Shown in pieces: positions 8,667-41,175 of a stretch of 50,000 nucleotides of DNA (the first letter of the stretch is position 1; every line of letters starts with the position of its first letter). Location of the stretch: positions 1 to 50,000 of the forward strand of contig JAYPAP010000010.1 of the NCBI GenBank assembly GCA_038123735.1, in the 5' to 3' direction. The translations under genes were made by a program, and so were the position numbers. Source of the stretch: Deltaproteobacteria bacterium (lineage in GTDB: Bacteria > Myxococcota_A > UBA796 > GCA-2862545). The notes beneath the pieces are model-generated. The model was not told the origin of the DNA. It did no database searches and was given only the letters and a program-made list of their open reading frames with translations.

Positions 8667-10349
8667 TTAGCTGATAACTTCGGCCTTCATCAGCTCATTG
8701 TAGGCGGCTTCTGCAGCGTGCTCTGGTGCATTGAGCGACGACAGGTCGACGGCATAGCCGACATTTCCGCCGGTGAAGACAGCCACGAGGCCTGCGCTCG
8801 ACATCGCGTCTGCAACTTGATGACTATCCGTTACCGCGGCCAGTACCCCATTATCGAAGAGATGGCGCTCGATAGCCCACGCAGCGCTGGTGCGTTCGGT
8901 CTCAGAACCGCCCACAACGGACACCACTGCGCCGCCGTGACCGAGTCGGAGTCGCCGTTCGGTGGGGCTGACTTGAGTGCCGGTGGTGTCAGCGACCTGC
9001 GCACCCCGGGAGAGGTCGGTGGGGCCCACCAGCATGCCAGCAGCGACAGTGTTGTTCGAGATGGAGTCCACCAGAATGAAGGCGCCGCTGTTCCTGTTTT
9101 CTGCATAGGCGTCAAAACAGACGGTTCCATGCGCTGCAAGGCGGACGAGACCAATCTCGTTCAAGGCCAGCGCCTGCTTGTCATTTTGGGTTTCGAGGGT
9201 GCTCAATTCAATGGACCACGCGACCTCCGACACATTGGTGCGCAGGGTGCGAGTGGTGTGTTTCATCAGATAGGTCTTTTCGGTGTCCAGGTCCGTCTCG
9301 CTCATCCACACCAGCATGGCGTCGACATTGCGTGCCTGCTTCGGGAGCTGATGGCTTGGGACGATGAGGTCGCCTCGTGAGATATCGATCTCGTCTGCCA
9401 AGCGGAGAACGACAGACATCGGAGCGAACGCTTCGTCGATCTCTCCTTCGTAGGTATCGATATGGGTGACCCGCGTTGTTTTTCCGCTGGGAAGGACCGA
9501 AATTTCATCTCCGACCCGGACAATACCGGAGGTGATCTGTCCGGCAAAACCCCGATAATGGAGGTCTGGGCGAATCACATACTGGACCGGGAAGCGGAAT
9601 GCATCAAGGTTGGTATCGTGCTTAATTTCGACAGTCTCAAGGAACTGAAGCACGGTTGGGCCGTCATACCAAGGCATCTTGTCTGCGCTTGGCTCGACAA
9701 TGTTGACGCCGAACAGCGCACTGATGGGGAGGAAGTCCACGGTGCGGAATGAGAGGTCACTGGTGAATTGCTTGAATTCAGCCATGATTTCTTTGAATCG
9801 CGCCTCATCATAATCAACGAGGTCCATCTTATTGACGCACACGAGTAGGTGAGGGATCCCGAGGAGGTGCGCGATGTATCCATGGCGTCTCGACTGCTCC
9901 AGGACGCCAAGCCTTGCGTCGATGAGGATGAGAGCGACGTTGGCAGTCGAAGCCCCGGTGGCCATATTGCGGGTATACTGCACGTGGCCGGGCGTGTCTG
10001 CGATAATAAACTTTCGACGGGGAGTACTAAAGTATCGGTATGCTACGTCGATCGTGATGCCTTGCTCGCGCTCGGCACGCAGTCCGTCGGTGAGGCGGGC
10101 GAAGTCAATCGCGGTCTCGCCACTGGCGGCGGTGGTGGTTGCGTCCTTCAGTTGGTCATCGTAGACGCCCTTGCTGTCATGCAAGAGTCGGCCGATGAGG
10201 GTACTTTTCCCATCGTCGACGCTACCGACCGTCGTAAAGCGCAGCAGTTCTTTCCGGAGGTTCTGCTCCAGGAACGCATCGATGTCGTTTTCGATCAGCT
10301 CGCGCTCACGTTGGCTCGAGCCGTCGCCGGTATCAATCAGGCGGGTCAT
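8667..10349 (-). CDS. cysN: sulfate adenylyltransferase subunit 1 (CysN GTPase) with a short degenerate APS-kinase-like tail
   Basis: G1 is GSVDDGKST, G3 is DTPGH, G4 is NKMD, and EF-Tu-like domains II/III follow. ATG 10349 (MTRLID) has GGGAG upstream and lies 13 nt after the cysD stop. The last ~100 aa align to the APS-kinase position but lack the P-loop. Confidence 0.95.
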   Translation of the reverse strand: MTRLIDTGDGSSQRERELIENDIDAFLEQNLRKELLRFTTVGSVDDGKSTLIGRLLHDSKGVYDDQLKDATTTAASGETAIDFARLTDGLRAEREQGITIDVAYRYFSTPRRKFIIADTPGHVQYTRNMATGASTANVALILIDARLGVLEQSRRHGYIAHLLGIPHLLVCVNKMDLVDYDEARFKEIMAEFKQFTSDLSFRTVDFLPISALFGVNIVEPSADKMPWYDGPTVLQFLETVEIKHDTNLDAFRFPVQYVIRPDLHYRGFAGQITSGIVRVGDEISVLPSGKTTRVTHIDTYEGEIDEAFAPMSVVLRLADEIDISRGDLIVPSHQLPKQARNVDAMLVWMSETDLDTEKTYLMKHTTRTLRTNVSEVAWSIELSTLETQNDKQALALNEIGLVRLAAHGTVCFDAYAENRNSGAFILVDSISNNTVAAGMLVGPTDLSRGAQVADTTGTQVSPTERRLRLGHGGAVVSVVGGSETERTSAAWAIERHLFDNGVLAAVTDSHQVADAMSSAGLVAVFTGGNVGYAVDLSSLNAPEHAAEAAYNELMKAEVIS

Positions 10350-10362
10350 TGGGCGGGCTCCC

Positions 10363-11283
10363 TTAGAAGTAACCTTCTCGCTTCTTTCGTTCCATGGAAC
10401 CATCTTCATCGAAGTCGATGAGGCGATTCTGGCGCTCCGATAGGCGGGTCACCATCATTTCGCGGATGATATCGGGGATTGTTCGGGCAGAAGAGCGGAT
10501 TGCACCAGTCAGAGGGTAGCAGCCCAGGGTTCGGAATCGAACAGTTTCATAGCGGACTTCCTCTCCTTCAGGGATAGGCATCCGCTCATCGTCGACCATG
10601 ATCATGGCGCCTTGGTAGTTGACGACTGGGCGCTCTTCTGCGAAATATAGGGGTACAACCGGAATTTGTTCGATATGGATGTACTGCCAGATGTCCAATT
10701 CGGTCCAGTTTGACATCGGGAATACACGGACGCTCTGTCCTTTTCGGATCTTGCCGTTGTAGATATTCCAGAGTTCCGGACGTTGGTTTTTGGGATCCCA
10801 TTGATGAAATTCATCGCGGAAGGAGAAGATGCGCTCTTTGGCGCGCGATTTTTCCTCTTCCCTCCGGGCACCACCGAAAGCGGCGTCGAACCCATACTTA
10901 GACAATGCTTGCTTCAGGCCTTGGGTCTTCATGACATCCGTATGGACCTGGGACCCTGAAGAGAATGGATCGACGCCGGCATCGACGCCTTCCTGATTTT
11001 TATGCACGATGAGCCGGATGTTGTTTTCTCGAGCAAAGCGTTCGCGAAAAGCGTACATTTGCTGAAACTTCCACCCAGTGTCCACGTGTAGGAACGGGAT
11101 CGGGACCGGACCCGGCGCAAAGGCCTTGATGATGAGCCGGGCCAAGACGGATGAGTCTTTGCCAATCGAGTACAGCACAACGGGGTTATCAAATTCGGCA
11201 GCCGCTTCTCGAATGATGTGAATCGCTTCGGATTCGAGGAGGCGAAGGTGCGAGAGAGTATGCTTGTCAAGCGCTGAAGCCAC
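10363..11283 (-). CDS. cysD: sulfate adenylyltransferase subunit 2 (CysD)
   Basis: [22 protein letters not shown] and [11 protein letters not shown] (PAPS-reductase/ATP-PPase fold) resemble the E. coli CysD N-terminus. GTG start at 11283. Confidence 0.95.
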
Positions 11284-11438: not shown

Positions 11439-12239
11439 TCAAGATGTCAAAATTCGAATGAGGCCTTCCGGATCGTCCACGTGAAGCCAGTGTCCAGCGT
11501 CCTCGAGGACGTGTAATGAGCATTGCTCGGAAGCCTCGGTCTCAAAGCGGCGGATCACTTCGGGTGGCCATCGGTCGCTGCGGCCGGCGCGAACGATGTG
11601 GATGGGACAAGGAGGGGTGGCCAGCAAAGGCCAATAATCGCGGGTCCAATAGTCGGAGATCATCTCTCGAATAGCCGGTAGGGGGAATACCCACCGAAAA
11701 CCATCTTCGGACCTGGCCAAGTTGGTCGTTAGCCATTGGGCTAATCCCTGGGAAAACCCCCACTGTCCGAGGATGGGGATCAGGTCTTGACGGGCCTGAA
11801 GTGGCTGCGGTACATCCGCGAGGGCATCGAGCACCGCCATGACTTCATTCTCAGCACTCGGCGGCTCGGCTCCCGGTCGACTGTCGAGAACCCATGCTGC
11901 GCGGAGTCCGGATGGCTTGAGAGCCGCGTAGGCCAGGGCCACCTTTCCTCCGAACGAATGGCCGATGACAATCGAGGGCTCGCCGGTCTGGCTAGCCAAA
12001 TTCACCAAGTCATTCGCAGCATTCGCCAATGAATGGGGTCCAGAAAAGCCCTGGCTTTTCCCGTGATTCCGGAGGTCAACGAGCACGATCTTCCAACCGG
12101 GCTGATGATCGGTGAGCGCCCGAGCGACCGTCCGCCAATTTCGTCCACTTCCCAGAATTCCATGGAGGATGAACACAACATCAGTGGTCTGAGTATCCGT
12201 GCGCTCAACGATGGAATGCGAGAGGAGCTGCTGCATCAT
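11439..12239 (-). CDS. alpha/beta hydrolase
   Basis: HG oxyanion motif FILHGILGSG, nucleophile elbow GHSFGG, and a C-terminal DAGHW. ATGA overlap with the upstream gene. Confidence 0.85.
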   Translation of the reverse strand: MMQQLLSHSIVERTDTQTTDVVFILHGILGSGRNWRTVARALTDHQPGWKIVLVDLRNHGKSQGFSGPHSLANAANDLVNLASQTGEPSIVIGHSFGGKVALAYAALKPSGLRAAWVLDSRPGAEPPSAENEVMAVLDALADVPQPLQARQDLIPILGQWGFSQGLAQWLTTNLARSEDGFRWVFPLPAIREMISDYWTRDYWPLLATPPCPIHIVRAGRSDRWPPEVIRRFETEASEQCSLHVLEDAGHWLHVDDPEGLIRILTS

Positions 12240-13514: not shown

Positions 13515-15137
13515 GTGGGTTGTCGACCCGCGAACTCGGTTGGTACATCATGCGACACAGGGGGAACGTTGTCCATCCATCGGTACGAACAACTGCCTTA
13601 TCCTGGGCGCCCGTATGCGGCGGCGACTCCAGAGCGGCTCGAAGTTATTGGTAAGCTCTTCGGACTGGATGTAGCTCCGGCGAGTCAAGCACGGGTGCTT
13701 GAGCTTGGGTGTGGCTCGGGGGGGCACCTCATTCCGTGTGCAGCCCGCAATCCATCGTCGCGATTTGTCGGTATTGACGGTGCCAAGTCGCATATTGAGG
13801 CCGCGCGTCAGATGGTCGAGGAGCTGGGGCTCCAGAATGTCGAGTTCATCCATCGCGATCTGTTAAAGATCAACCGCGATATTGGCTGTTTTGACTATGT
13901 TATCGCGCATGGGCTCTGGAGTTGGACGTCCGAATCGGTACGTTCGCACATCTTGAGTTTGTCCAAGAGTATATTGAATAAAACTGGTTTATTCTATGTT
14001 TCATATAATGCGTTTCCCGGCTGGCATGCGCGCCAGGCAGTGGCTGCCGCGCTGCGATTTCACGTCGACGAGACCGATGGTGTGGCTGAGCAGATCGAAC
14101 AGGCTCGTCGCATGCTCGCCTTCCTGGAGCAAACGAGTGCGGAGCAGTCCGACCTGTGGGCGGAAACGGTACGGTCTGAGTGCCGGGTAGCTGAGGCGTA
14201 TGGATGGGAGTTTTTATTCCACGACCTGCTCAACCCGGATACGCAGCCATTCTATTTCGAGGCGATTGCCCAGTCATTTGGCGCGGCTGGTCTCGTGTAC
14301 CTAGCGGAAGCAAACCTCTCTTCCATGCTCCCGGAAAACGTTGCGCCTCGTGCGGTCATGGGGCTGGAACGGCTGGATGCCGATTGGGTATCGCATCAGC
14401 AATATCTAGACTTTGTGGTGAACCGTTCTTATCGGGCGTCGCTCTTCCATCCTCCGGAGGGGCATTCCTCTGACCACATCGAGTCGACGGCCGTCCGCAG
14501 AATGGGCATGGCGACTACGTTGAGGCGGGTCGGTCCTCCGGAGACAGGCGAGTTGGTTGGCGAGGTCGTTCACTATCGCGCTGATGGTGGCCCTTCGATA
14601 TCATCGGACTCCCAATTGTTTTGCTTGTTGCTCGATATTCTTGGTGACTTCTCACCATCCTTTGTTTCTTGGACGACCGTGGCGCGAGAGGCGGGAGAGC
14701 GGGGGGCGACCTGGACTGCGGATGAGCTGGCAGCGGCTCTGTCAGAGGATGTGTGTATGGCCTATACGCGAGGTCTGATTGACTTATGGCCAGCTGCGAG
14801 TGGTGAGGTCGATCTGCGAGCGCATCATCCTTGTGCTGAGCCATTACCGGCTCTCCAGGCTCGCCATCGTGGTGCCTTCGTATCGACTCGCCTCCATCAG
14901 GCCTACGAGGTCGATGAGTTGGACCGTCAGATTCTGCTCGCGTGTGATGGGCGCACGGAGACGGAGGCGGTGATCGCGCGGGTGGTGCGCGGCGTGTTGG
15001 ATGGAGACGTTCAGGTAGAGGCAGTCGACTTATCAAACTCAGAGGGTCATTCTCCCGAGGCATTGATCCAAGAGGTTGCCGGTCGACTCACTGCGCTGGG
15101 TAGAGTGGGAGCGCTACTCCCCACGGAAGCCAGATGA
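13515..15137 (+). CDS. class I SAM-dependent methyltransferase with a C-terminal methyltransferase-regulatory-like domain (PKMT-like architecture)
   Basis: YEQLPYPGRPYAAATPERL...VLELGCGSGGHLIP (motif I) is followed by a ~350 aa extension, as in ~540 aa MTase plus regulatory-domain proteins. The start is ambiguous (GTG 13515, or TTG 13569 preceded by GGGGGA). Confidence 0.85.
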   Translation: MGCRPANSVGTSCDTGGTLSIHRYEQLPYPGRPYAAATPERLEVIGKLFGLDVAPASQARVLELGCGSGGHLIPCAARNPSSRFVGIDGAKSHIEAARQMVEELGLQNVEFIHRDLLKINRDIGCFDYVIAHGLWSWTSESVRSHILSLSKSILNKTGLFYVSYNAFPGWHARQAVAAALRFHVDETDGVAEQIEQARRMLAFLEQTSAEQSDLWAETVRSECRVAEAYGWEFLFHDLLNPDTQPFYFEAIAQSFGAAGLVYLAEANLSSMLPENVAPRAVMGLERLDADWVSHQQYLDFVVNRSYRASLFHPPEGHSSDHIESTAVRRMGMATTLRRVGPPETGELVGEVVHYRADGGPSISSDSQLFCLLLDILGDFSPSFVSWTTVAREAGERGATWTADELAAALSEDVCMAYTRGLIDLWPAASGEVDLRAHHPCAEPLPALQARHRGAFVSTRLHQAYEVDELDRQILLACDGRTETEAVIARVVRGVLDGDVQVEAVDLSNSEGHSPEALIQEVAGRLTALGRVGALLPTEAR

Positions 15138-25553: not shown

Positions 25554-26585
25554 ATGGAAATGCGGTGGTTCGTAATGGCGATGATGGCCGGAACGCTTGG
25601 CTGTAAGGGTGGTGAGGTGGATACGGATGGAGGATCGCCACCGCCGGATACCGACGATATTCCGGATACATTTTTAGGCCGCACGGAAAAGCCGAGCGAT
25701 GTGGAGCGCGAAGGCGAGTCACTGACGGCTGGACTGATACGGGTCACCGTCGGTCCGGATGATGCTTGGGAGTTAGGCGGGTACCTGGGCGGAGCACCCA
25801 TCACCGGGACGGGTAACTTCGGAATCGAGCTCCCGGAGAAGGGCGAAGAGCTCGATCTTGGGAATGGCCGGACTGGGGCGCTCTATCTGCCGGTCGTGTA
25901 CGATGATATTGACCGGGACAAGACCTTTATCGACAATGAAGATGACCTCGTGTTGGGCTTTTCGAGCACTCGATGGTTGGTCTATCTCTCTGCCGGCGGT
26001 GCGGGAGATCCGCTCGGATGGTCCGTCGTAGACGCGTCGCAATCCACGTGGGTATTCTACAAATTGACTGAACAATCTGTAGTCCGGCTCTACGGGTTGA
26101 GTGCCGTCGCGAGGTTGCAGGGGATCTACGAAGGCGATGCTACGGGCTATGGGGTGGTTGCGCTCGATGAACGATACCCCGGTGCGGATGGCTCCGATTG
26201 GGCCGCGGTCGATGTGGCGGTCGATGCGATGAATGGGCAGTTTGACCAGACGATCGACAGTCGGCCTCCGGTGGATGCATTCCAGTTTCCGCCGAATGGT
26301 GTTCGGTACGTGCGGGCACAGGTGCAGTTCTTTAATGATGTAGATGGAAATGGGCGATTTAGCTCGGATACTGATACGCTCGCCGATGCTGGTTTGTGCT
26401 TTGACGGCAAGCCCCTCATCCTGCGGTTCAGTGACACGCCCCGGAGTATCGGCATCGCACGGTCCATCGCCGAACTCGGATGGACGACGGGATGGCGATT
26501 CGTCACCGGCCCCTATGGTGCATCTACGGAAGTGAGTCGCGCCGACCTAAAATGGACCCGCTTTAAAGACGATTGTCCGATTTAG
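25554..26585 (+). CDS. hypothetical (lipo)protein
   Basis: The N-terminus MEMRWFVMAMMAGTLGCKGG is a possible lipobox. ATG 25560 has better spacing to GGAGGG than ATG 25554. No recognisable family. Confidence 0.6.
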   Translation: MEMRWFVMAMMAGTLGCKGGEVDTDGGSPPPDTDDIPDTFLGRTEKPSDVEREGESLTAGLIRVTVGPDDAWELGGYLGGAPITGTGNFGIELPEKGEELDLGNGRTGALYLPVVYDDIDRDKTFIDNEDDLVLGFSSTRWLVYLSAGGAGDPLGWSVVDASQSTWVFYKLTEQSVVRLYGLSAVARLQGIYEGDATGYGVVALDERYPGADGSDWAAVDVAVDAMNGQFDQTIDSRPPVDAFQFPPNGVRYVRAQVQFFNDVDGNGRFSSDTDTLADAGLCFDGKPLILRFSDTPRSIGIARSIAELGWTTGWRFVTGPYGASTEVSRADLKWTRFKDDCPI

Positions 26586-28963
26586 CTCTGCGTTCGCCTT
26601 CGTCTCAGGAGGCCTACGAGCAGGAGCGTGAGCAAGCCTCCGCCCACCGCCGGCGATGGGATACTTGAGCAGCTGAGTCCAAGAAAGCCCTTGCGCTCCG
26701 AACAATCCGTGTTGTGAGATGCGCTGCCGGGGAAGATGGATGCATCGCTGTCATCGCAGTCGCCGAGCTGTGGCGCCGGCGCGCCGTTGAGACACACCCG
26801 GACTTGAACATTGGTCCCCCAGCCGTCACCGTCCGCATCGGCCCAGGTGCGATCGCCGTCGGAAGGGTCATCGTCGATTTCACCGTTGCAGTCATTATCA
26901 AGTTCGTCGCAACGTTCTTCGTTTCCAGGAAAGACATCTGCGTTGGAGTCATCGCAGTCATCGGTTCCTTCGCCGAAGCCTGCCGGTGGGTCACAGTCCT
27001 TGGCGGTAGTGCCTTCCACGCCAAAGCCATCGCCATCGGCATCTGGATACCAATCGACCGCTCCGCTCGCGTTGGGGCCGTCTATGACTTGGTCGCAGTC
27101 ATCGTCCTTGCCGTTGCACACCTCGGGGGCGCCGGGCTTGATGGATGCATCGTTATCGTCGCAATCGTCAGGATAAAAGACCCCATCGTTGTCATCGTCG
27201 ACGGAGCATCGGACATCATTTCGTTGCTCAGAAACCCAGGTTTCGCCCGTGGTTTTGTCTTGAAGTGTGATGCGGAAGAAGGTGCGACCATTTCCGATGC
27301 ACTCCATGGGAATGGAGCCAGTAAAGGCGACGCCCGAGTCGGCGTTGCTGGAGTTGGCCTCGGCGGGTGGAGAGTCCACCGACGTCACGCCGAGCTCAAT
27401 ATTGGTATTTGTTGCGACTAAGGTGGCTTTGAGCGAATTCGTGTCGACGAGGCCGCCGTTGGACAGGAGCAGCTTTAGTCGGAAACTCTCTCCTCGCTCG
27501 ATGACGCCATCGCCATCGCCACCCACACCGTCGTCGACGCGAACTGTGGCGCTTGGAAGTGGAGTTGAGGCGTAGTACTCGGCCTCATCGAGCGCGCCCG
27601 GGAGGTAGAGGCGAGAGCCGTGCAGCACGCACTTGGCCGTACTGCCGCAGTCCAGGCTGGAAATCGGCTCGGAGCCGTCGATGATCGCCTGACGGACTTG
27701 GGCCCTGGTCAGTTCGGGGTATTCATCCCAAAGAAGCGCGGCGCCGGCAGCAACGAGCGGTGCGGCGAACGAGGTACCTTGGGCAGTCCGTAAATCGGTC
27801 GAGCTATCGATCCCCAGACTGCGGATACTCGAGCCCGGGGCCCCGATGTCGACGCCTTTGGCGCCGTAGTTGGAGAATGAGGAGCGGCGGTCGCGGTGGT
27901 CGGTGGCTGCTACCACGATGTCGTCGGTGACGTTAAAGTCAATAGGAAAGTCGACTTCGCTGTCCACGTCTCGATTGGCGTTGCCGGCGGCAATGACGAG
28001 AAGGGTGTCCGACCGAGAGATGGAGGTCATCGCTGTTGAGACGGCGGGAGTCGTCATGTTGCCGAGGGTCCACGAGGCATTGATGACCTGAGCTCCGTTA
28101 TCTTCGGCATAGTACAGGGCTTCCGCCAGCTGCACGTCGGTCAGGCGGCAGTCTGTGTCGGATACCATCTTGAGCGGCATCACTTTTCCCGCCCAATGAA
28201 CACCCGCTATGCCCGAGTTATTATTGGTACGAGCAGCAATCTGGCCCGCAATGAATGTCCCGTGGCCCGGAGCGCAAGAGACCCCACTGCTGCTGGTGCT
28301 CGGCAGGTCACGAGGGTCTGGGTCGTTATCGTCGTCGCCGACATCCCAGCCTTCGCAGTCATCGATATACCCATTCCCGTCGTCATCCTTGCCGTTTCCG
28401 CAGATCTCACCGGGCGGTTGGTAGATTCGACCAGAGAGCTCCGAGTGCCCAGTGTAGACCCCGGAGTCGATCACAGCGACGACAACGCCGGCCTCTCCCC
28501 GGGTGATATCCCACGCGTCGACGGCGCCTATATCTGCACCGACAATGCCTGGGCTTCCGCTGATCGTCGTACCGGTGTTGCGTAGGTACCATTGGGCGCC
28601 GAGGAGGTCGTTTGGCGTGGCCGTGAAGTGGATCTGGAACGCAGCCTGCACCACCTGGATCTCATCGCGCCCCTGCCAGTGTTGAAGCACATCCTCGGGT
28701 GAAAGTTGGGCATTACAGTTCACAGTCACCCAGTCCCGCTTCCCCCAGGCATGGCTTGGAGCGCAGTCAGGATGGACTCCGTGCAGGTCTTCTACCGAAA
28801 AGCCGGGAGTCAACCGAACCGCATATTGGCCGGGAACCACGACATGAGCATTGTTCACGTTTTGATGGTACCGCGCCAAGGCGTCATCATCTGCGGCAAA
28901 CGCCGTGACTCCTATCGAAAGGCTGATACCAACGGTCAACAATCCAATCCGCGGTCGATGCAT
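26582..28963 (-). CDS. S8 family (subtilisin-like) serine peptidase with C-terminal MopE-like Cys-rich repeats and a MYXO-CTERM-like sorting tail
   Basis: The catalytic triad is VAVIDSGV (D), HGTFIAGQI (H) and GTSFAAPLVAG (S), after a signal peptide. Three repeats follow the pattern DCDDxDAxIxPGxxExCNGxDDDCD. The tail is GLSCSS...GGGLLTLLLVGLLRRRR. Confidence 0.95.
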   Translation of the reverse strand: MHRPRIGLLTVGISLSIGVTAFAADDDALARYHQNVNNAHVVVPGQYAVRLTPGFSVEDLHGVHPDCAPSHAWGKRDWVTVNCNAQLSPEDVLQHWQGRDEIQVVQAAFQIHFTATPNDLLGAQWYLRNTGTTISGSPGIVGADIGAVDAWDITRGEAGVVVAVIDSGVYTGHSELSGRIYQPPGEICGNGKDDDGNGYIDDCEGWDVGDDDNDPDPRDLPSTSSSGVSCAPGHGTFIAGQIAARTNNNSGIAGVHWAGKVMPLKMVSDTDCRLTDVQLAEALYYAEDNGAQVINASWTLGNMTTPAVSTAMTSISRSDTLLVIAAGNANRDVDSEVDFPIDFNVTDDIVVAATDHRDRRSSFSNYGAKGVDIGAPGSSIRSLGIDSSTDLRTAQGTSFAAPLVAAGAALLWDEYPELTRAQVRQAIIDGSEPISSLDCGSTAKCVLHGSRLYLPGALDEAEYYASTPLPSATVRVDDGVGGDGDGVIERGESFRLKLLLSNGGLVDTNSLKATLVATNTNIELGVTSVDSPPAEANSSNADSGVAFTGSIPMECIGNGRTFFRITLQDKTTGETWVSEQRNDVRCSVDDDNDGVFYPDDCDDNDASIKPGAPEVCNGKDDDCDQVIDGPNASGAVDWYPDADGDGFGVEGTTAKDCDPPAGFGEGTDDCDDSNADVFPGNEERCDELDNDCNGEIDDDPSDGDRTWADADGDGWGTNVQVRVCLNGAPAPQLGDCDDSDASIFPGSASHNTDCSERKGFLGLSCSSIPSPAVGGGLLTLLLVGLLRRRRTQS

Positions 28964-35074: not shown

Positions 35075-35231
35075 TTTTGGCGCGGGCGCCTTCACGGTAG
35101 AGTGCGTACGAGGGGTAACTTTTGAGGTGTCCGTGCATTCGGAGACCCGTCCGGACGTATCGGAAGCATGGTGGCGGGAGTCACATTCTTGGTGAGCCGG
35201 TTATGCGCCGCGGGCGATAGCGGAGGATGTG

Positions 35232-36965
35232 ATGGCGCGCCAGTCTTTAGCCATGAGTGCGAGTGCAGTGAGCGAGCGTGGTGAGGGCTTGGGCCATCTC
35301 GATGCTGCGGTTGAGGCGGTGGCAGCGGAGAAGACCAACTTTGCACGCCTATCTGTGAGTTCTAAGGTTTCCCTACTGCAGTCCTGTCTTTCCCGAGTTC
35401 CGGTGCATGCTGAGTCGTGGGTGCGTGGGCTCTGTGAGCTCAAAGGGCTGGATCCGACGTCCCGCGAGAGCTCGGAGGAGTGGTGGAGTCCCTATCATGT
35501 GGCCCGCCACATTCAGCTATTGATCCAGAGCCTTGAGCAAATCGCGAAGGAAGGTCGACCGCAATTTGGTGCGGGTCCTTCGAGGGTGACGTTCGATAGG
35601 CTGCATGTGCCTGTAGTACCGGTAGACCTTGCGGATCGTCTGCTTCTCAACCTCGTCTATGGCGTCCGTGCAGATATCGTGTTTCAGCCAGGGATCTCCA
35701 AGGAAGAGGCTCGGGATCGGCAGGCAGCGTTCTACCAAGAATCAGACCCAGAAGGAGCGGTCTCGCTGGTTCTGGGTGCAGGAAACGTGTCGTCCATTCC
35801 GGCGATGGATGTGCTTACCTGCATGTTCAATGAGGGCCGCGTATGTGTTCTCAAGATGAATCCCGTCAACGAGTGTTGTGGGCCGGCATTGGAAGGGGTT
35901 TTTCAGCCACTCATTGAGCGGGGCTTCCTCAAAATTGTGTACGGTGGAGCCAAGGCGGGGGCCCATCTGGTGAACCATGCCTTGGTGGATGAGATTCACA
36001 TCACGGGCTCGGAGCATACCCACGACCGCATCGTGTGGGGAGATGATCCAGCAGCCGCGAAAGAAGCGAATACCCCACGGATTACCAAGCGTATTCAATC
36101 AGAGCTCGGGAACGTGACCCCGATGGTCGTCGTGCCGGCCAACTACTCGCGAGCAGAGCTTGCCGCCCAAGCTCAGAACGTGGCGATGATGATGGTAAAC
36201 AACGCCTCGTTCAACTGTATCGCTGGAAAAATGCTGGTCCTCGCGAAGGACTGGCCGCAGCGCGAGGCATTCCTCGATGCCGTCCGCGAGGCTCTGAACG
36301 GTCAACAAAACCGCAAAGCCTACTACCCAGGCGCGGAGTCGCGGTATGTGACGCTTACCGACGGTCGATCGATTCAGACCCTCGGCAAGCCGGTGGATGG
36401 TGCACTACCGTGGACATTGATCACGGACCTTGATCCTGCGGAACCGTCTGACCCGCTGTTCCAGACGGAGCCCTTCTGCAGCATTCTTTCGGTGGTCTCT
36501 CTCTCCGGAACTGGGCCAGTAGAGTTCATGAAGGTCGCCACGGACTTTTGTAACGAGACCCTGTGGGGGCAGCTCGGCGCGACGGTGATTGCACCCCCTT
36601 CGATCATGCGCGATTCCACGGCGGGTCCGGTATTTGAGCAGATGCTCATCGACCTGCGCTATGGCGCGGTGGCGGTAAATGGGTGGTCTGCCCTGAACTA
36701 CTCGATGGGCACCACGCCATGGGGGGCGTTCCCCGGAAATACCCTGAAGGATGTGGGTAGCGGCATTGGATTCGTCCACAATTCCTTCATGTTTGACGGG
36801 ATCGAGAAGAGCATCTCCAGATGTTCGATCGTTCCGATGCGGACTCCACCCTGGCTCAATCAGCACAAGCATCCGCAAGAGACCGCGCGGCGCATGATGC
36901 ATTTTGCGGTGGATCGGTCACTGGGGAGCTTCCTTGGAGCATCTCTCTCGGGGCTGACCGGTTGA
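35232..36965 (+). CDS. aldehyde dehydrogenase family protein
   Basis: LGAGNVSS, ELGNVTPMVVVP (ELGG-like) and NNASFNCIAGK (catalytic Cys context) are present. GGAGG lies 5 nt upstream of ATG 35232. Confidence 0.85.
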   Translation: MARQSLAMSASAVSERGEGLGHLDAAVEAVAAEKTNFARLSVSSKVSLLQSCLSRVPVHAESWVRGLCELKGLDPTSRESSEEWWSPYHVARHIQLLIQSLEQIAKEGRPQFGAGPSRVTFDRLHVPVVPVDLADRLLLNLVYGVRADIVFQPGISKEEARDRQAAFYQESDPEGAVSLVLGAGNVSSIPAMDVLTCMFNEGRVCVLKMNPVNECCGPALEGVFQPLIERGFLKIVYGGAKAGAHLVNHALVDEIHITGSEHTHDRIVWGDDPAAAKEANTPRITKRIQSELGNVTPMVVVPANYSRAELAAQAQNVAMMMVNNASFNCIAGKMLVLAKDWPQREAFLDAVREALNGQQNRKAYYPGAESRYVTLTDGRSIQTLGKPVDGALPWTLITDLDPAEPSDPLFQTEPFCSILSVVSLSGTGPVEFMKVATDFCNETLWGQLGATVIAPPSIMRDSTAGPVFEQMLIDLRYGAVAVNGWSALNYSMGTTPWGAFPGNTLKDVGSGIGFVHNSFMFDGIEKSISRCSIVPMRTPPWLNQHKHPQETARRMMHFAVDRSLGSFLGASLSGLTG

Positions 36966-36969
36966 GAAC

Positions 36970-37338
36970 CTACTCCTCGCCAACTTCGTTGGTATAGAGG
37001 AACTTGCCGAATAGCCTTCGATTTCGCGCCAGTACGAAGTAACCAGCATCGGCCATCCACTTCATCGGAGGATGCCAGAACAGCGCGGGCAGAACACGCC
37101 AGCCACAGCGATGCTGTACGAAGAGAGCAGCCTGAGCGCCGCGATAGATCTCGCCAGACGGTCCAAGAACGTAGAGGGCGCGCTCCGCGTCCGTCCGAAG
37201 GGAGGCTGTAATACGAGGATCCGTGGAGGTCTGGGATGCCTCAAATATCAGTTCTTTCGATTGGTCGTGCAGCTTGGCCCAAGCTGCCCATCGGCGTCAC
37301 AAGCCTCACAATCCGTCGAAGAGGACGAGATACGTCAT
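36970..37338 (-). CDS. DCC-family (DUF393) thiol-disulfide oxidoreductase with two in-frame TGA at the DxxCxxC cysteines; putative UxxU selenoprotein (alternatively a pseudogene)
   Basis: This was hand-translated and is not in the ORF track. The translation is ATG(37338)-MTYLVLFDGL-TGA-GL-TGA-RRWAAWAKLHDQSKELIFEASQTSTDPRITASLRTDAERALYVLGPSGEIYRGAQAALFVQHRCGWRVLPALFWHPPMKWMADAGYFVLARNRRLFGKFLYTNEVGEE-TAG(36972-36970). The start overlaps the asparaginase stop (ATGA). The TGA codons are at 37308-37306 and 37299-37297. Family hallmarks (vLFDG.C..C, YRG..A, Y.l.ARNR..FG) run across the full length. Confidence 0.6.
37258..37293 (-). promoter_or_regulatory. SECIS-like mRNA hairpin immediately downstream of the two in-frame UGA codons
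   Basis: The RNA is CGAUGG-GCAGCUU-GGGCC-AAGCUGC-ACGA-CCAAUCG. It has a perfect 7-bp upper stem, a G-rich apical loop, and a lower helix with one bulge. The upper stem begins 9 nt after the second UGA. Confidence 0.4.
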
Positions 37339-38402
37339 CGAGGACTCCGTGCTTCGGTAAGTTCGCCGCGAATCGACTTTGGAATCAGCTCCTTGACCTC
37401 ATCTCGGCTGAGCTCCTGGGATAAGAGCCAGGACAGCTTGATCAGCGCGGCCTCGGGTGTCATGTCTCTCCCGCCGATCACTCCTGCCTCGGATAACGAG
37501 TTGCCAGCTGCATAATCGCTGGTGACGGTGCCACGATGGCACTGGGTGCAGTTCACGAGAACCACCCCCCGGTCGCTTGCTTCGCGAAGCACCCGTAGAA
37601 AATCAGGGTTGTTGTCTGGTGCGTTGCCCGACCCATAGGTCTCGAGAACGACCCCCTCCAGGGGGGGCTGGAGGATCCGGTCAAGCACTTGAGCGGACAG
37701 CCCAGGGTAAAGCCTGATAGATACCACATTAGATTCGGTGATGGGGCGGACGCCGAACGGACCATGGGGGGCGTCGCGCACGATGCTCCAGTCCACCTCG
37801 ATCGAGACGCCAACGCGAGCCAGGGGGCGCAAGTTACCGGCGTGGAACGCATCCAGACTACTCGCATCTACCTTTTGAACCCGATTTCCTCGCCAGAGCG
37901 ACTCATGAAAGTACAGTCCAACTTCTGGGATATCGAACTGACCGGCAATCAGGATCGCACCGAGGAGGTTCTCGACGGCATCATTGCGCAGCTGGGTAAG
38001 CGGGATCTGACTACCGGTGAGAACAACGGGTTTTCCAAGGTTCTCAAGCATGAAGGATAATGCCGCTGCGGTATACGCCATGGTGTCTGTGCCATGGATG
38101 ACGACAAAGCCGTCGTAGGTGTCGTAGTTTTCCTCAACCGCTCGGGCGATCCGAATCCAGTCAGTACGCGCCATATTCGATGAGTCCAGCAGCGGAGGAG
38201 ACTCGAGGACGTCGTAGCGGATCTGCTCTACGGAAGCTGCAGACGGAAGAGTGTGGAGGGGTTGTGCGGGGTCGTGAAAGGATGGAAGTCGGGCGAGATG
38301 CTCGGCCAAAAAGCCGCCGACAGGGGCATAGCCGCGCTCGGTTCGCTGCATTCCGATCGTTCCGCCGGTATATACGAGCAGGATATGACGCACGCGGGAC
38401 AA
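37335..38402 (-). CDS. ansA: type I L-asparaginase
   Basis: ILLVYTGGTIGM and VVIHGTDTMAYTAAALSF are present, with a C-terminal domain resembling cytoplasmic asparaginase I. The start is TTG 38402 or GTG 38393; GGAGG is spaced better for the GTG. Confidence 0.93.
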   Translation of the reverse strand: MSRVRHILLVYTGGTIGMQRTERGYAPVGGFLAEHLARLPSFHDPAQPLHTLPSAASVEQIRYDVLESPPLLDSSNMARTDWIRIARAVEENYDTYDGFVVIHGTDTMAYTAAALSFMLENLGKPVVLTGSQIPLTQLRNDAVENLLGAILIAGQFDIPEVGLYFHESLWRGNRVQKVDASSLDAFHAGNLRPLARVGVSIEVDWSIVRDAPHGPFGVRPITESNVVSIRLYPGLSAQVLDRILQPPLEGVVLETYGSGNAPDNNPDFLRVLREASDRGVVLVNCTQCHRGTVTSDYAAGNSLSEAGVIGGRDMTPEAALIKLSWLLSQELSRDEVKELIPKSIRGELTEARSPR

Positions 38403-38514: not shown

Positions 38515-39000
38515 ATGATGTGGAAGTATGCATTGTTCATTCTGGCGTTAGGAGCATGTGGCGGCGGCGGGGGCGAGGAATCGGATGGCCCGACCATCAT
38601 CGGAGATGGGATCCGGCCGGTCCTCGAGAGCGCCGAATATGCATGCTTTGAAGATGCTAATGGCGGGAAGTTTTTCTACTTCCGCCTGAAAGGGCTGGAT
38701 GAGCAAGGTGCCAATACGATCGACATCAACGGTGGCCGAGTATTGTTCAACGATAGCTCAGGTACTCCCTTAGACTTCAATGGCGATGGTAGTCCGGATC
38801 CCGAGGCGATCCTGGAGCTCATCTGTGAGGCGGATACCGACCCGCGACGCTGCGAGGGGTCTCTGTTAGAAGGTCCTGTTTCTGGTCCATGTGCAGGCAC
38901 GACCTTGCAGTTCGAAGGCTGGATTGTCGACGAGGACGGTAACGAGTCCGATCACTCAATAGAGTTCGAGCGCAATCCTGGTATCGCGCCCGCCGGCTAG
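38515..39000 (+). CDS. small hypothetical lipoprotein
   Basis: MMWKYALFILALGACGGGGG is a lipobox followed by a Gly linker. RBS GGAGGAG lies 7 nt upstream. The stop overlaps the convergent halogenase stop (CTAG). Confidence 0.55.
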   Translation: MMWKYALFILALGACGGGGGEESDGPTIIGDGIRPVLESAEYACFEDANGGKFFYFRLKGLDEQGANTIDINGGRVLFNDSSGTPLDFNGDGSPDPEAILELICEADTDPRRCEGSLLEGPVSGPCAGTTLQFEGWIVDEDGNESDHSIEFERNPGIAPAG

Positions 39001-40487
39001 GGTATCGCCTGACCCCGAAGGAAGGCCTGCAGCATGGCCTCGTGGTGAAAACACTGTTCACTCGCCTGAGACAAGTGGTTCTGGTGCGCATGAAGGCGTT
39101 CTTGGTATCCCTCGTCCAGGCCGAAGTAGTTCCAGTAGTTCCGACATGACCGTTGGTCGAAGAGGTTGAGTCCAAGCGCGATGTACAACCAGGAGGTCGC
39201 CGGAAATGGAGCGGGGTCACCGGCAATTCTAGGGTCCTCTCCGAATGGCCATCGGTATCCATGTTCGAGAATCTCAGCGCTGACCGGTGGGGCGGTCGTG
39301 CGTTGCCGAAATGACTTCCAAAATGGCGAGTCGGTTCGGCCACCGCAGTAATGGATGTAGAGAAAGTCGATCGTGCGCTCCATGAGCGTCCGGTGGTACT
39401 CATTGAACTTTCGGCGAGCAAACCTATCATTTTGAGGGAGGTGAGACTTGAAGAACTCTTTGAGGAGCAAGATGCTCATCCAGATAGACGTCGCTTCCAA
39501 GGGCTCCAGAAATCCTGTCGAAACACCGATGCTAACTACTTTTTGTTTCCAGATTTCATCCAGGTAACCAGACTTAAATCTTAAAACGCGGTCGGTGAGA
39601 TCCGCTTCGGGGAAGTGTTGCTTGATGGTGTTTCGGGCGTCCTCATCGCTGGCAAACTGAGAGTCGAACACGTAGCCGCAGCCAAACCTGTCTTCGACCG
39701 GTATTTTCCAGGCCCAGCCGGACTCGAGAGCGATCGCATCCGTCTGCGGAAGCCGCGGGCCATCGAGGGGTAAAGAAAATGGGATCGCGGAATCGACCGG
39801 CAGTGTATTTCCGCGGTCTATCCATTTCGATCCCAGAAACTCTCCGATCAGGAGGCGCCGGAATCCCGTACAATCGAAGAACAGCTCTCCTCCGAGGCTG
39901 GAGCCATTGTCAAGGATAATCCTGTCTACTTGACCGCTTGGATTGGGGAGCACGCCTTGTACGATCGCATCGATCCTTTGTACGCCGCGCTCCATTGCCT
40001 TTCGGCGCAAGAAGTCGGCGAGTCGGTGGGCATCAAAGTGTGCAGCATACGCACCATGTCGACGAGGTAGGTGTTCGTCATTGCCCTGGGGCGGGGACAG
40101 AACCGTCCGACCGTTGCGCGTCGCGAGTCCGGAGAAGGTGAGCTCTGAGATAGGGCGCGGCTGTTCCGGATGAACTATTGGAAGCTCGATTACCGGGTAT
40201 ACGTAGTCAAAGAATGGGTGGAAGTACTCCGAGCCATCGCCCGTCCAGTTGCGGAAGTTGATGCCGTTCTTGAAGGTAGCCCCGGCTTCGCGAACCAGCT
40301 CGGCCATCGGTATTCCGCAAAGGTCGAGGAAGTCAGAGACAAAGTGTGGCGTCGTTCCTTCTCCGGACCCGAGTATCCCAATGCTTGAACTCTCGACCAG
40401 AGTGATGGCTGCATTGGGCAGAAATGCGCGGGCGCTCAATGCAGTGAGCCACCCTGCTGTTCCCCCTCCGACAATGACGATCGACAC
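38997..40487 (-). CDS. flavin-dependent halogenase family protein (tryptophan halogenase-like, PF04820-type)
   Basis: VSIVIVGGGTAGWLTAL is the GxGxxG motif, and GWAWKIPVEDRFGCGYVF is the WxWxIP signature. GTG 40487 has AGGAG 8 nt upstream. The track start at 40640 overlaps the upstream gene. Confidence 0.85.
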   Translation of the reverse strand: MSIVIVGGGTAGWLTALSARAFLPNAAITLVESSSIGILGSGEGTTPHFVSDFLDLCGIPMAELVREAGATFKNGINFRNWTGDGSEYFHPFFDYVYPVIELPIVHPEQPRPISELTFSGLATRNGRTVLSPPQGNDEHLPRRHGAYAAHFDAHRLADFLRRKAMERGVQRIDAIVQGVLPNPSGQVDRIILDNGSSLGGELFFDCTGFRRLLIGEFLGSKWIDRGNTLPVDSAIPFSLPLDGPRLPQTDAIALESGWAWKIPVEDRFGCGYVFDSQFASDEDARNTIKQHFPEADLTDRVLRFKSGYLDEIWKQKVVSIGVSTGFLEPLEATSIWMSILLLKEFFKSHLPQNDRFARRKFNEYHRTLMERTIDFLYIHYCGGRTDSPFWKSFRQRTTAPPVSAEILEHGYRWPFGEDPRIAGDPAPFPATSWLYIALGLNLFDQRSCRNYWNYFGLDEGYQERLHAHQNHLSQASEQCFHHEAMLQAFLRGQAIP

Positions 40488-40551
40488 CGCTTCGCTCCTC
40501 GCTTGACCCGCTCTACTATACAGGCCAAACGCCCACTGCGCACTGCACGTG

Positions 40552-41175
40552 CTAGGCGAGTTGGTCCGCGGGCTGCGCGGCCGCCTCCGGCACAGCGTAT
40601 GCGCTCGAATAGTTGGTGACTTCCGCGGCGAGGGCCTCAATCTCTTGAAGGTGGGCCTTCATAGCGCCCAGGATCTGCACTTGTAACCGATCGAGTTTCG
40701 TATATTCGAAGCTCCTGAGGTCCATATCGATCGCTGCTGTAGCCGTGAGGACGGAATCACCGAAACTTTGGATGATCAAGGTCTGGGCCAAAAGAAGCTC
40801 ATCACTTTGGTATTCAGGTTGTCCCCCAGTTTCAGCGGAGAATGGACGCGTGCTTAGGGCCTCGGAGAGCTCCCAAACCTCGTCTGCGAGGTCGGATGCT
40901 CGGGCAGCGACCAGGTGGCGGTCGTTCTCAAGCTGATGCACCCTGCGCCCGATCAATGCACCGGCGACAGCGCCGATGATGGGCGTACACGCGGTGGCGA
41001 CCAATGCGACGGTGGGAGTGGTAAAGAGGCTCCAGGAGGTGGCGCCGTTGAGCCATTCGCCCCCAAACGCGAGGAAGGGAATGCTCAGCCCAGTGGTGAG
41101 CCCGGCCAGCACACCCTGACCGAGCCGCCGGATTTCGGCGTGAAATGGCTGGTTTTCAAGTTCGGGTCTGCTCAT
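40552..41175 (-). CDS. hypothetical membrane protein
   Basis: The ATG 41175 start (MSRPELENQPF) avoids overlap with the FKBP gene. Two or three hydrophobic segments are present (GVLAGLTTGLSIPFLAF, TVALVATACTPIIGAVAGALIG), followed by a helical C-terminus. Confidence 0.5.
   Translation of the reverse strand: MSRPELENQPFHAEIRRLGQGVLAGLTTGLSIPFLAFGGEWLNGATSWSLFTTPTVALVATACTPIIGAVAGALIGRRVHQLENDRHLVAARASDLADEVWELSEALSTRPFSAETGGQPEYQSDELLLAQTLIIQSFGDSVLTATAAIDMDLRSFEYTKLDRLQVQILGAMKAHLQEIEALAAEVTNYSSAYAVPEAAAQPADQLA

What the first reader, a model, noticed from the sequence alone, without database searches (positions are those of the whole stretch)
36970..37338. Hidden DCC/DUF393 thiol-disulfide oxidoreductase with both redox cysteines encoded by in-frame TGA (candidate UxxU selenoprotein)
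The ORF track shows only spurious ORFs between the aldehyde dehydrogenase and the asparaginase.

Reading the minus strand from the ATG at 37338-37336, which overlaps the asparaginase stop as ATGA, gives one 122-codon frame. It reads MTYLVLFDGL-TGA-GL-TGA-RRWAAWAKLHDQSKELIFEASQ...GEIYRGAQAALFV...ADAGYFVLARNRRLFGKFLYTNEVGEE-TAG, with no other stop.

The translation matches the DCC (DUF393) family along its whole length. The two TGA codons (37308-37306 and 37299-37297) fall exactly on the two cysteines of the family-defining DxxCxxC motif.

TGA is a normal stop elsewhere in the window (for example 3560-3562, 4783-4785, 1117-1119, 12236-12238), so a reassigned genetic code is unlikely. Two independent nonsense mutations hitting precisely both redox Cys codons, in an otherwise intact and translationally coupled ORF, would be a striking coincidence. 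A stable G-loop hairpin follows the second TGA.

The only UxxU (diselenide-capable) redox motif I know of is in the eukaryotic SelL family. A bacterial DCC-family UxxU protein would be unusual, and automated gene callers miss it.
Basis: partly seen in the sequence, partly recalled or inferred. Interest (0 to 1): 0.85.

Follow-up and report, generated by a model that had tools for sequence, protein, structure and literature searches.

The report
Two-selenocysteine DCC-family redox protein gene
A small gene that gene finders miss encodes a DCC-family thiol oxidoreductase whose two active-site cysteines are both written as UGA; the same arrangement plus a conserved RNA hairpin recurs in about 20 unrelated metagenome sequences, so it is very probably a real, uncatalogued bacterial selenoprotein family with a rare Sec-x-x-Sec site.

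Summary
On the minus strand, 37338-36970 is one 122-codon frame that matches Pfam PF04134 (DCC1-like) at 63.6 bits against a cutoff of 27.8. TGA sits at both Cys positions of DxxCxxC.

It is not a pseudogene, a sequencing error or a reassigned code.
- 18 further distinct loci from marine, sediment and soil metagenomes carry TGA-x-x-TGA at the same place. They share 32-54% protein identity with the window and have different gene neighbours.
- Two loci are CxxU, and Cys-form relatives are CxxC.
- dN/dS between close relatives is 0.15-0.32.
- An 8-bp hairpin with a GGU/GGC loop starts 17 nt after TGA2 and 26 nt after TGA1. It meets the published bacterial SECIS rules for both codons and is 94% paired across 20 sequences.
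- The window copy of the hairpin carries two double-sided compensatory changes.
- Cys forms that encode the same peptide lack the hairpin.
- 14 of 19 homologues end at an ordinary TGA stop that lacks such a hairpin.

The family is absent from the 119-family 2026 catalogue and from NCBIfam.

Two things were not shown. No selA, selB, selC or selD was found in the DNA available. SECIS-dependent Cys insertion by tRNA-ReC cannot be excluded.

UxxU is already known in several bacterial families, so this is a new member of a known kind.

The parts
36970..37338 (-). Complete ORF of the DCC1-like protein: 122 codons plus a TAG stop. It contains two in-frame UGA codons.
   Evidence: PF04134, 63.6 bits. 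Homologues with the same architecture. dN/dS 0.15-0.32 between close relatives.
37345..37348 (-). Shine-Dalgarno-like GGAG, 6 nt upstream of the ATG.
   Evidence: Read directly from the sequence (...CACGGAGTCCTCGATG). Its function is inferred.
37336..37338 (-). ATG start codon. It overlaps the stop of the upstream asparaginase gene (TGA 37337-37335) as ATGA, which suggests translational coupling.
   Evidence: Asparaginase identity: (NF006998, 398.7 bits).
37306..37308 (-). First in-frame UGA (codon 11). It aligns with the first Cys of DxxCxxC and is the proposed Sec.
   Evidence: TGA at this column in 19 distinct loci including the window, and TGC in the two CxxU loci and in the Cys forms.
37297..37299 (-). 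Second in-frame UGA (codon 14). It aligns with the second Cys of DxxCxxC and is the proposed Sec.
   Evidence: TGA at this column in all 21 recoded loci.
37269..37287 (-). bSECIS-like hairpin GCAGCUUG-GGC-CAAGCUGC: 8-bp stem, 3-nt loop starting with GG, -10.7 kcal/mol. The apical loop begins 17 nt after UGA2 and 26 nt after UGA1.
   Evidence: Conserved in register in 20 sequences, 94.4% of cells paired, 0 of 500 shuffles reach the covariation score. Absent from Cys forms with the same peptide. The criteria come from PMC13188914, section 5.
37335..38402 (-). Upstream neighbour: type I L-asparaginase. It gives context only and is not conserved next to homologues.
   Evidence: Different neighbours in L001, L009, L026, L033 and L034.

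Best explanation
The window encodes a genuine 122-residue DCC1-like (PF04134) thiol-disulfide oxidoreductase in which both residues of the DxxCxxC redox motif are encoded by UGA.

Proposed mechanism:
- The gene is translated from an ATG coupled to the asparaginase stop.
- When the ribosome reaches each UGA, one mRNA hairpin inside the coding sequence acts as a bacterial SECIS. It is an 8-bp stem with a GGC loop, and its loop lies 26 nt after the first UGA and 17 nt after the second.
- The hairpin recruits SelB carrying Sec-tRNA(Sec), so selenocysteine is inserted twice, three codons apart.
- The product has a U-x-x-U site at the N-terminal cap of helix alpha-1 of a thioredoxin-like beta-alpha-beta unit. 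There it would cycle between a diselenol and a diselenide (or form Se-S links with a substrate) as a redox catalyst.

Shown here: the frame, the family membership, conservation of both TGAs and of the hairpin across many distant homologues, purifying selection, and TGA used as a true stop in the same genes.

Inferred: that the inserted residue is Sec, that one hairpin serves both codons, that a diselenide forms, and the physiological substrate.
For: (1) Family membership. PF04134 scores 63.6 bits against a cutoff of 27.8 over nearly the whole profile.

(2) Cys/UGA pairing. The two TGAs fall on the only two invariant Cys columns of 66 Cys-form relatives (invariant D9, C12, C15).

(3) Recurrence.
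- 7 of 8 N-truncated database representatives whose DNA was fetched carry TGA-x-x-TGA.
- 13 of 16 loci from a metagenome scan do too, and 2 more are CxxU.
- Identities to the window range from 54% down to about 32%, with different neighbours and environments.

(4) No decay. None of these ORFs has another stop or a frameshift. The strand motif h-h-L-h-[FYW]-D-G upstream of the first TGA is conserved. dN/dS is 0.15-0.32.

(5) SECIS-like hairpin.
- It has the same register in 20 sequences, with 94.4% of cells paired against 12-46% for slid registers, and 0 of 500 shuffles reach the covariation score.
- The window copy differs from the consensus GCCGCCUG/CAGGCGGC by two double-sided changes (C-G to A-U and C-G to U-A).
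- The peptide encoded by the 3' arm changes (AKL, ARQ, VRR) while pairing is kept.
- The distant homologue L034 has a different stem and peptide, but its loop GGUC starts at the same distance.
- It meets all four published bSECIS criteria for both UGAs.

(6) Cys-form controls that encode the same AAWVRR peptide use other codons and have only 2, 4 or 5 of 8 pairs.

(7) TGA is a real stop here. It ends 19 of 51 long ORFs in the window and 14 of 19 homologues, and only 1 of those 14 terminal TGAs has a qualifying hairpin.

(8) Fold. An AlphaFold2 model of a Cys-form relative (pLDDT 90) puts CxxC at the N-cap of helix 1 after strand 1. The top Foldseek hits are all thioredoxin-fold proteins, though each is weak.
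Against: - No selA, selB, selD or tRNA-Sec was found in the window or in about 220 kb of related loci. The one SelB-like hit is CysN. So nothing shows that this organism can decode Sec.
- True compensatory events in the hairpin are few: 2 pairs and 3 cells. Most of the signal is conservation, part of which could be coding constraint on the A-A-W-V-R-R peptide.
- Within the window the hairpin is not statistically unusual.
- Rfam has no matching model.
- The thioredoxin-fold assignment is weak (Foldseek E >= 0.3, TM about 0.3).
- There are no experimental data of any kind.
- The metagenome scan used a peptide pattern (RxAAW[VA][RK]..D) that overlaps the hairpin-encoding codons. The 15:1 ratio of recoded to Cys forms in that scan is therefore biased.
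Confidence: 0.78

Rival explanations
1. The gene is real and is recoded through the same SelB/SECIS route, but one or both UGAs are read as cysteine by a SelC*-type tRNA (tRNA-ReC). The mature protein would then be CxxC, CxxU or UxxC and not UxxU.
For: PMC13582414 reports that tRNA-ReC decodes SECIS-linked UGA as Cys. It also reports that tRNA-ReC is significantly enriched in genomes with UXXU-type hydrogenases (about 56% against about 2%), and states that either or both UGAs may then be Cys. CxxU intermediates exist in this family (L013, L021). Everything shown here (conserved TGA, conserved hairpin) fits this reading equally well.
Against: No such tRNA was found in the window or the loci, but that DNA is far too little to judge. 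Writing Cys as UGA only to insert Cys needs a special explanation, whereas Sec substitution at redox Cys is the general pattern in more than 110 families.
Confidence: 0.13
2. It is a pseudogene or an assembly or sequencing error: a former CxxC gene inactivated by two nonsense mutations.
For: TGC to TGA is a single-base change. Gene callers do not call the ORF. No Sec machinery was seen.
Against: The same double TGA occurs in 18 other distinct loci at 32-54% identity, from independent samples and assemblers, with no additional stops or frameshifts. dN/dS is 0.15-0.32. A hairpin linked to the TGAs is conserved.
Confidence: 0.01
3. UGA is reassigned genome-wide in these organisms (for example to Trp or Gly), so the codons are ordinary sense codons.
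For: None beyond the in-frame TGAs themselves.
Against: TGA ends 19 of 51 long ORFs in the window, including the overlapping asparaginase gene, and ends 14 of 19 homologues of this very gene. In-frame TGA is confined to the two Cys columns.
Confidence: 0.01
4. The functional product is only the part downstream of the TGAs, a DCC protein without the redox motif. The upstream 10-13 codons would be a short leader ORF, and the hairpin would be a regulatory or mRNA-stability element.
For: Databases hold many such truncated calls, about 70 of 140 representatives. JGI names some of them DCC family oxidoreductases.
Against: The window has no start codon between TGA2 and Met92. The segment upstream of TGA1 is conserved as protein in frame and matches the start of the Pfam profile. 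The called starts in homologues differ from one to another (the Met of PPMT, or a codon just after TGA2), as expected of caller artefacts. The CxxC motif defines the family, and D, C and C are its only invariant columns.
Confidence: 0.03

Closest known systems
DCC1-like / DUF393 thiol-disulfide oxidoreductases (Pfam PF04134; Arabidopsis DCC1, Bacillus YuxK)
   Same: The protein matches the HMM over its full length and has the same length. The D-x-x-[C/U]-x-x-[C/U] motif sits at the same place, after strand 1 and at the N-cap of helix 1. It has the same C-terminal helices.
   Different: Both redox Cys are written as UGA and a SECIS-like hairpin lies just downstream. All described members are Cys proteins. 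No DCC selenoprotein appears in the 2026 catalogue, NCBIfam or the searchable literature.
Prx-like thiol:disulfide oxidoreductase selenoproteins (PF00578; UxxC/UxxU; the bacterial relatives of selenoprotein L)
   Same: It is a redox protein with a UxxU site in place of CxxC, presumably in a thioredoxin-like fold. Its two UGAs are three codons apart.
   Different: It belongs to a different protein family: there is no PF00578 hit and the only Pfam hit is PF04134. That SelL forms a diselenide is from my own knowledge of Shchedrina et al. 2007, which I did not re-read here.
Group 4 [NiFeSe] hydrogenase large subunits with an N-terminal UXXU motif (PMC13582414)
   Same: The family shows a mosaic of CXXC, CXXU and UXXU forms. 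A SECIS core downstream is conserved between CXXU and UXXU forms, and one hairpin is proposed to serve both UGAs. A G occupies the first or second loop position.
   Different: There the residues are metal ligands in a large enzyme. Here they form a small free-standing redox motif. In that study selABCD and tRNA-ReC were checked in the genomes, which could not be done here.
Other catalogued bacterial UxxU selenoproteins: the metal-binding (mercuric reductase-like) protein NF041115 and the FmdB family TIGR02605
   Same: They have two Sec in a UxxU motif and were predicted computationally.
   Different: Their folds and families are unrelated. The NCBIfam scan of this protein returned no family at all.

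Membership tests
DCC1-like thiol-disulfide oxidoreductase (PF04134) | Score above the Pfam gathering threshold over most of the profile | tested here: met
   63.6 bits against 27.8, profile positions 1-109 of 113, with Cys at the TGA positions. With X at both positions it scores 43 bits.
DCC1-like thiol-disulfide oxidoreductase (PF04134) | N-terminal DxxCxxC motif | tested here: met
   The Asp and the spacing are present (F-D-G-L-U-G-L-U). The two Cys columns, invariant in 66 Cys-form relatives, hold UGA codons. The motif is therefore met in position, with Sec (or recoded Cys) in place of Cys.
DCC1-like thiol-disulfide oxidoreductase (PF04134) | Thioredoxin-like fold with the CxxC at the N-terminus of helix 1 | tested here: inconclusive
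   The AF2 model of the Cys-form relative P0005 (pLDDT 90) has strand1-CxxC-helix1-strand2-helix2-strand3-strand4-helix3. The top Foldseek PDB hits are all thioredoxin-fold proteins, but with E >= 0.3 and TM about 0.3. No family member has a solved structure by sequence search.
Bacterial selenoprotein (SelB/SECIS-dependent UGA recoding) | In-frame UGA aligned with a conserved Cys of homologues (Cys/Sec pair) | tested here: met
   Both UGAs align with the invariant Cys columns.
Bacterial selenoprotein (SelB/SECIS-dependent UGA recoding) | UGA-containing homologues in other organisms, with protein conservation on both sides of the UGA | tested here: met
   18 further UxxU loci and 2 CxxU loci. 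dN/dS is 0.15-0.32.
Bacterial selenoprotein (SelB/SECIS-dependent UGA recoding) | [quoted passage not shown] | tested here: met
   8-bp stem, loop GGC, 17 and 26 nt from the two UGAs, -10.7 kcal/mol. Conserved in 20 sequences and absent from Cys forms. The bSECISearch program itself was not available.
Bacterial selenoprotein (SelB/SECIS-dependent UGA recoding) | selA, selB, selC (tRNA-Sec) and selD present in the same genome | not testable with these tools
   The window is essentially the whole 50,340-bp contig. None of these genes is in it or in about 220 kb of related loci.
Bacterial selenoprotein (SelB/SECIS-dependent UGA recoding) | Selenium shown in the protein (75Se labelling or mass spectrometry) | not testable with these tools
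   This needs an experiment.
Selenoprotein L / Prx-like UxxU family (PF00578) | AhpC/TSA (PF00578) domain | tested here: not met
   The only Pfam hit at E <= 1 is PF04134. The protein resembles this family in motif but is not a member.

The most novel reading that the evidence does not exclude
DCC1-like UxxU proteins are a large, environmentally widespread bacterial selenoprotein family that has escaped every catalogue. Up to about half of the sequence clusters in this DCC subclade may belong to it. In this family a single very short SECIS hairpin drives two Sec insertions three codons apart and produces a catalytic diselenide. That would make it the most accessible natural system for studying tandem Sec insertion and diselenide redox chemistry in bacteria.
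Probability: 0.5. Interest if true: 0.68.

Novelty: new member of a known kind. Interest (0 to 1): 0.58.

Why it matters
- **Catalogue.** If confirmed, this adds a selenoprotein family to a list of about 119, and one of only a handful with two adjacent Sec residues.
- **Annotation.** It shows a systematic error. Public protein sets hold many N-truncated 'DCC family' proteins that lack the family's defining motif, because callers stop at the UGAs.
- **Mechanism of Sec insertion.** The element is compact: an 8-bp hairpin 17 nt after the second UGA and 26 nt after the first. It could be used to test how one SECIS and SelB serve two nearby UGAs, and whether tRNA-ReC takes part.
- **Redox chemistry.** A UxxU site in a small thioredoxin-like protein would have a much lower redox potential than CxxC. 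That bears on the still unknown function of DCC proteins.

Tried and rejected
- **Word-indexed protein search** with the Cys-substituted protein found nothing. The exhaustive HMMER search was needed.
- **The genome-collection scan** gave one locus, cut at the contig end before the motif (L005).
- **A 7-sequence alignment** was too diverse for the locus finder.
- **SelB-like tblastn hit** at window 9360-10238 turned out to be CysN, next to CysD.
- **ARAGORN's 98-nt 'tRNA-Ala'** in L012 was checked as a possible tRNA-Sec and has no Rfam support.
- **Rfam searches**, on the whole window at gathering thresholds and on 37150-37400 at permissive thresholds, gave only noise.
- **Looking up a window gene** to extend the contig returned scaffolds that lie inside the window.
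- **One truncated representative** (P0090/L033) proved to be a Cys form with a mis-called start, so not every truncated call is a UGA form.
- **Conserved gene neighbourhood** that might hint at function: none was found.
- **A weak hit of the methyltransferase** at 13515-15137 to the NCBIfam 'UXPK-star double selenoprotein' model is generic methyltransferase-domain similarity (29 bits against a cutoff of 460).
- **BSepDB supplementary tables** are not held, so they could not be searched.

Full report
**1. The observation**

The minus strand from ATG 37338-37336 to TAG 36972-36970 is a single frame of 122 codons: MTYLVLFDGL*GL*RRWAAWAKLHDQ...NEVGEE*.
- Both internal stops are TGA, at 37308-37306 and 37299-37297.
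- The ATG overlaps the TGA stop of the upstream type I asparaginase gene as ATGA. The asparaginase scores 398.7 bits on NF006998.
- A GGAG lies 6 nt upstream of the ATG.
- No in-frame ORF of 40 aa or more was listed at this locus, because the first start codon after the second TGA is Met92.
- With Cys at the two positions, the protein matches Pfam PF04134 (DCC1-like thiol-disulfide oxidoreductase) at 63.6 bits against a cutoff of 27.8, over profile positions 1-109 of 113. With X at both positions it still scores 43 bits.
- TGA is an ordinary stop in this DNA.

**2. Is it more than chance?**

Within the window alone, only partly.
- The hairpin after the second TGA (GCAGCUUG-GGC-CAAGCUGC, 37287-37269, -10.7 kcal/mol) meets the published bacterial SECIS rules. 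[quoted passage not shown]
- It meets them for both UGAs, at spacings of 26 and 17 nt.
- However, 5.1% of all 1,575 TGA trinucleotides in the window are followed by something that passes those rules, and 1.5% by a hairpin at <= -10 kcal/mol.
- The 83-nt region folds no better than shuffles (z = +0.95).

The decisive evidence is comparative.

**3. Comparative evidence**

The search. The word-indexed protein search found nothing. An exhaustive HMMER search of 1.84 billion representatives, using the 108 residues after the second TGA, gave 140 hits.
- 66 are intact Cys forms with DGxCxxC.
- About 70 are N-terminally truncated calls. They start either at the conserved Met of 'SPPMTPEL' or immediately after the CxxC position.

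The DNA of truncated representatives. I fetched it for eight of them.
- Seven have TGA-x-x-TGA in frame just upstream: P0001, P0003, P0008, P0013, P0022, P0038 and P0138. The motifs read LVLFDGL*GL*RRWAAW, LVLYDGA*GL*RRIAAW, LILYDGD*GM*RR, LVLWDGD*GF*RR, WLIWDGL*SF*MR, WVLYDGD*GL*RR and AIFDGD*GF*LD.
- The eighth (P0090) is a Cys form with a mis-called start.

The metagenome scan. A scan with an alignment that excluded the motif returned 16 loci: 13 UxxU, 2 CxxU and 1 CxxC. That ratio is biased, because one of the search patterns overlaps the hairpin-encoding codons.

Overall tally.
- There are 19 distinct UxxU loci including the window, and 2 CxxU loci.
- Their identity to the window protein runs from 54% down to about 32%.
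- They come from marine, hypersaline-sediment, subsurface and soil samples, with unrelated gene neighbours.
- None has an extra stop or a frameshift.
- The strand motif upstream of the first TGA is conserved as protein.
- dN/dS between close relatives is 0.15-0.32.
- The two residues between the UGAs vary (GL, GM, GF, SF, DF, DL, TF), as in CxxC motifs.

This excludes a pseudogene or a sequencing error.

**4. The RNA element**

All 20 aligned TGA-containing sequences have a hairpin in the same codon register. The consensus is GCCGCCUG-GGU-CAGGCGGC, and the loop starts 17 nt after the second TGA.
- On the alignment, 94.4% of cells pair, against 12-46% when the 3' arm is slid by 1-3 columns. None of 500 shuffles reaches the observed covariation score.
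- True double-sided changes are few: 2 pairs and 3 cells.
- Two of these changes are in the window copy (C-G to A-U and C-G to U-A). They pair synonymous changes in the Ala codons of the 5' arm with amino-acid changes in the 3' arm (R-R to K-L).
- The rare Arg codon AGG, which is needed for pairing, is used in 18 of 20 sequences. The other two have AAG together with the compensating U.
- The distant homologue L034 encodes a different peptide (SRRVRRQ) and has a different stem (GCGCCG/CGGCGC). Its GGUC loop begins at the same distance.
- Cys-form controls that encode the same AAWVRR/AAWVKR peptide use GTG-CGC-CGC or GTA-AAA-CGG and have only 2, 5 and 4 of 8 pairs in that register.

So the hairpin goes with the UGA codons and not with the peptide.

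In the same mRNAs, 14 of 19 homologues end at a TGA. Only one of those terminal TGAs is followed by a qualifying hairpin. This also excludes a reassigned genetic code.

**5. What it is and how it most likely works**

Position of the residues.
- The two UGAs fall on the only invariant Cys columns of the family.
- An AlphaFold2 model of a Cys-form relative (P0005, 66-sequence alignment, pLDDT 90, pTM 0.82) has the order strand1, CxxC at the N-cap of helix 1, strand2, helix2, strand3, strand4, helix3, followed by extra helices. This is the thioredoxin/glutaredoxin arrangement.
- The best Foldseek matches in the PDB are almost all thioredoxin-fold proteins: GST-Omega N-domains, DsbE/TlpA-type isomerases, SelW, PDI and QSOX. 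Each is weak (E >= 0.3, TM about 0.3), so I rate the fold assignment as suggestive only.
- No family member has a solved structure by sequence search.

Most likely mechanism. SelB carrying Sec-tRNA(Sec) binds the single hairpin and inserts Sec at both UGAs. The result is a U-x-x-U redox site that cycles between diselenol and diselenide. The identity of the inserted residue, the use of one hairpin for both codons, and the diselenide are all inferences.

The only functional data on the family that I could cite concern Arabidopsis DCC1, described as a functional thioredoxin affecting mitochondrial complex I and ROS (PMC6603150).

**6. What could not be shown**

- The window has no tRNA and no Rfam hit.
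- tblastn with E. coli SelA, SelB and SelD against the window plus about 220 kb of related loci gave one hit, and that is CysN.
- The window is essentially the whole 50,340-bp NCBI contig, and public scaffolds carrying its genes lie inside it.

So the Sec-decoding trait of this organism is untested.

A second caveat comes from PMC13582414. SelC*-type tRNA-ReC decodes SECIS-linked UGA as Cys and is enriched in genomes with UXXU-type hydrogenases. One or both codons here could therefore be Cys in the mature protein. I give that rival about 0.13.

**7. Comparison with what is known, and novelty**

- Bacterial UxxU selenoproteins are already catalogued: Prx-like PF00578 (the SelL relatives), a metal-binding protein NF041115, the FmdB family, and Group 4 [NiFeSe] hydrogenases.
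- I read the full 119-family table of the May 2026 review, and it contains no DCC, DUF393 or PF04134 entry.
- BSepDB and deep-Sep do not mention the family in their main texts.
- Four literature searches combining the family's names with selenoprotein terms returned nothing.
- NCBIfam release 20 has no model that hits the protein.
- JGI annotates the truncated calls simply as 'predicted DCC family thiol-disulfide oxidoreductase YuxK'.

Within the limits of the searchable literature, this is an undescribed Sec form of a known Cys family, which I class as a new member of a known kind. Truncated and Cys-form representatives are interleaved in sequence space: the nearest neighbour is of the same class for 46 of 70 and 29 of 66. 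This suggests repeated Sec/Cys exchanges, as in other selenoprotein families. That analysis is coarse, and one in eight truncated calls may be a Cys form.

**8. Verdict**

- Confidence that this is a conserved, UGA-recoded DCC gene: about 0.95.
- Confidence that both residues are Sec: about 0.78.
- Interest: moderate to high (0.58). New selenoprotein families are reported regularly, but a widespread UxxU family with a compact shared SECIS that the catalogues have missed is worth reporting and is directly testable.

Noticed in passing
public protein collections (P0001-P0140): About 70 of 140 cluster representatives of this DCC subclade are N-truncated gene calls that lack the family's defining motif. 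7 of the 8 checked are UGA-UGA genes. JGI names such fragments 'predicted DCC family thiol-disulfide oxidoreductase YuxK'. This is a systematic annotation artefact.
   Followed up: partly
L013:141-560 and L021:1227-1590: Two soil-metagenome homologues are CxxU (TGC...TGA) with the same hairpin. They may be intermediates between the CxxC and UxxU forms.
   Followed up: partly
L012:5893-6300: A thioredoxin-like ORF with a WCGPC motif lies immediately downstream of the UxxU DCC gene in this deep-subsurface contig. It was read from the translation only and seen in no other locus.
   Followed up: no
L026:781-3411: A Cys-form DCC gene overlaps by 4 nt the last gene of a CT_C_D / LamB_YcsF / CT_A_B cluster, which looks like a 5-oxoprolinase cluster. 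In L033 a Cys form overlaps an FMN_red gene. These may be functional hints, but they are not conserved.
   Followed up: no
L012:845-942: ARAGORN calls a 98-nt 'tRNA-Ala (cgc)' here. Rfam finds no tRNA, so it is probably a false positive.
   Followed up: yes
window 8667-11283 (-): A cysD-cysN sulfate adenylyltransferase pair. CysN is what produced a spurious SelB-like tblastn hit.
   Followed up: yes
window 13515-15137 (+): A 540-aa methyltransferase with MethyTransf_Reg and PKMT winged-helix domains. It has a weak hit (29 bits against a cutoff of 460) to the NCBIfam 'methyltransferase/UXPK-star double selenoprotein' model, in the methyltransferase domain only. Its TGA stop overlaps the next gene's ATG, and nothing suggests recoding.
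   Followed up: partly
window 26582-28963 (-): A 793-aa subtilase that carries Cu-binding MopE repeats (PF11617). From my own knowledge this domain is common in Myxococcota, so it may hint at the organism. The taxonomy of the window was not established.
   Followed up: no
window 38997-40640 (-): A flavin-dependent tryptophan-halogenase family protein (PF04820, 346 bits), two genes upstream of the DCC gene on the same strand.
   Followed up: no
window 35229-36965 (+): A 578-aa protein with only a weak, partial aldehyde dehydrogenase match (38 bits, residues 200-356). It converges on the DCC gene, and only 4 bp separate the two stop codons.
   Followed up: no
P0037: A 1,437-aa database protein matches a 34-residue segment of the query in 13 separate stretches. 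It is an odd repetitive hit and was not examined.
   Followed up: no
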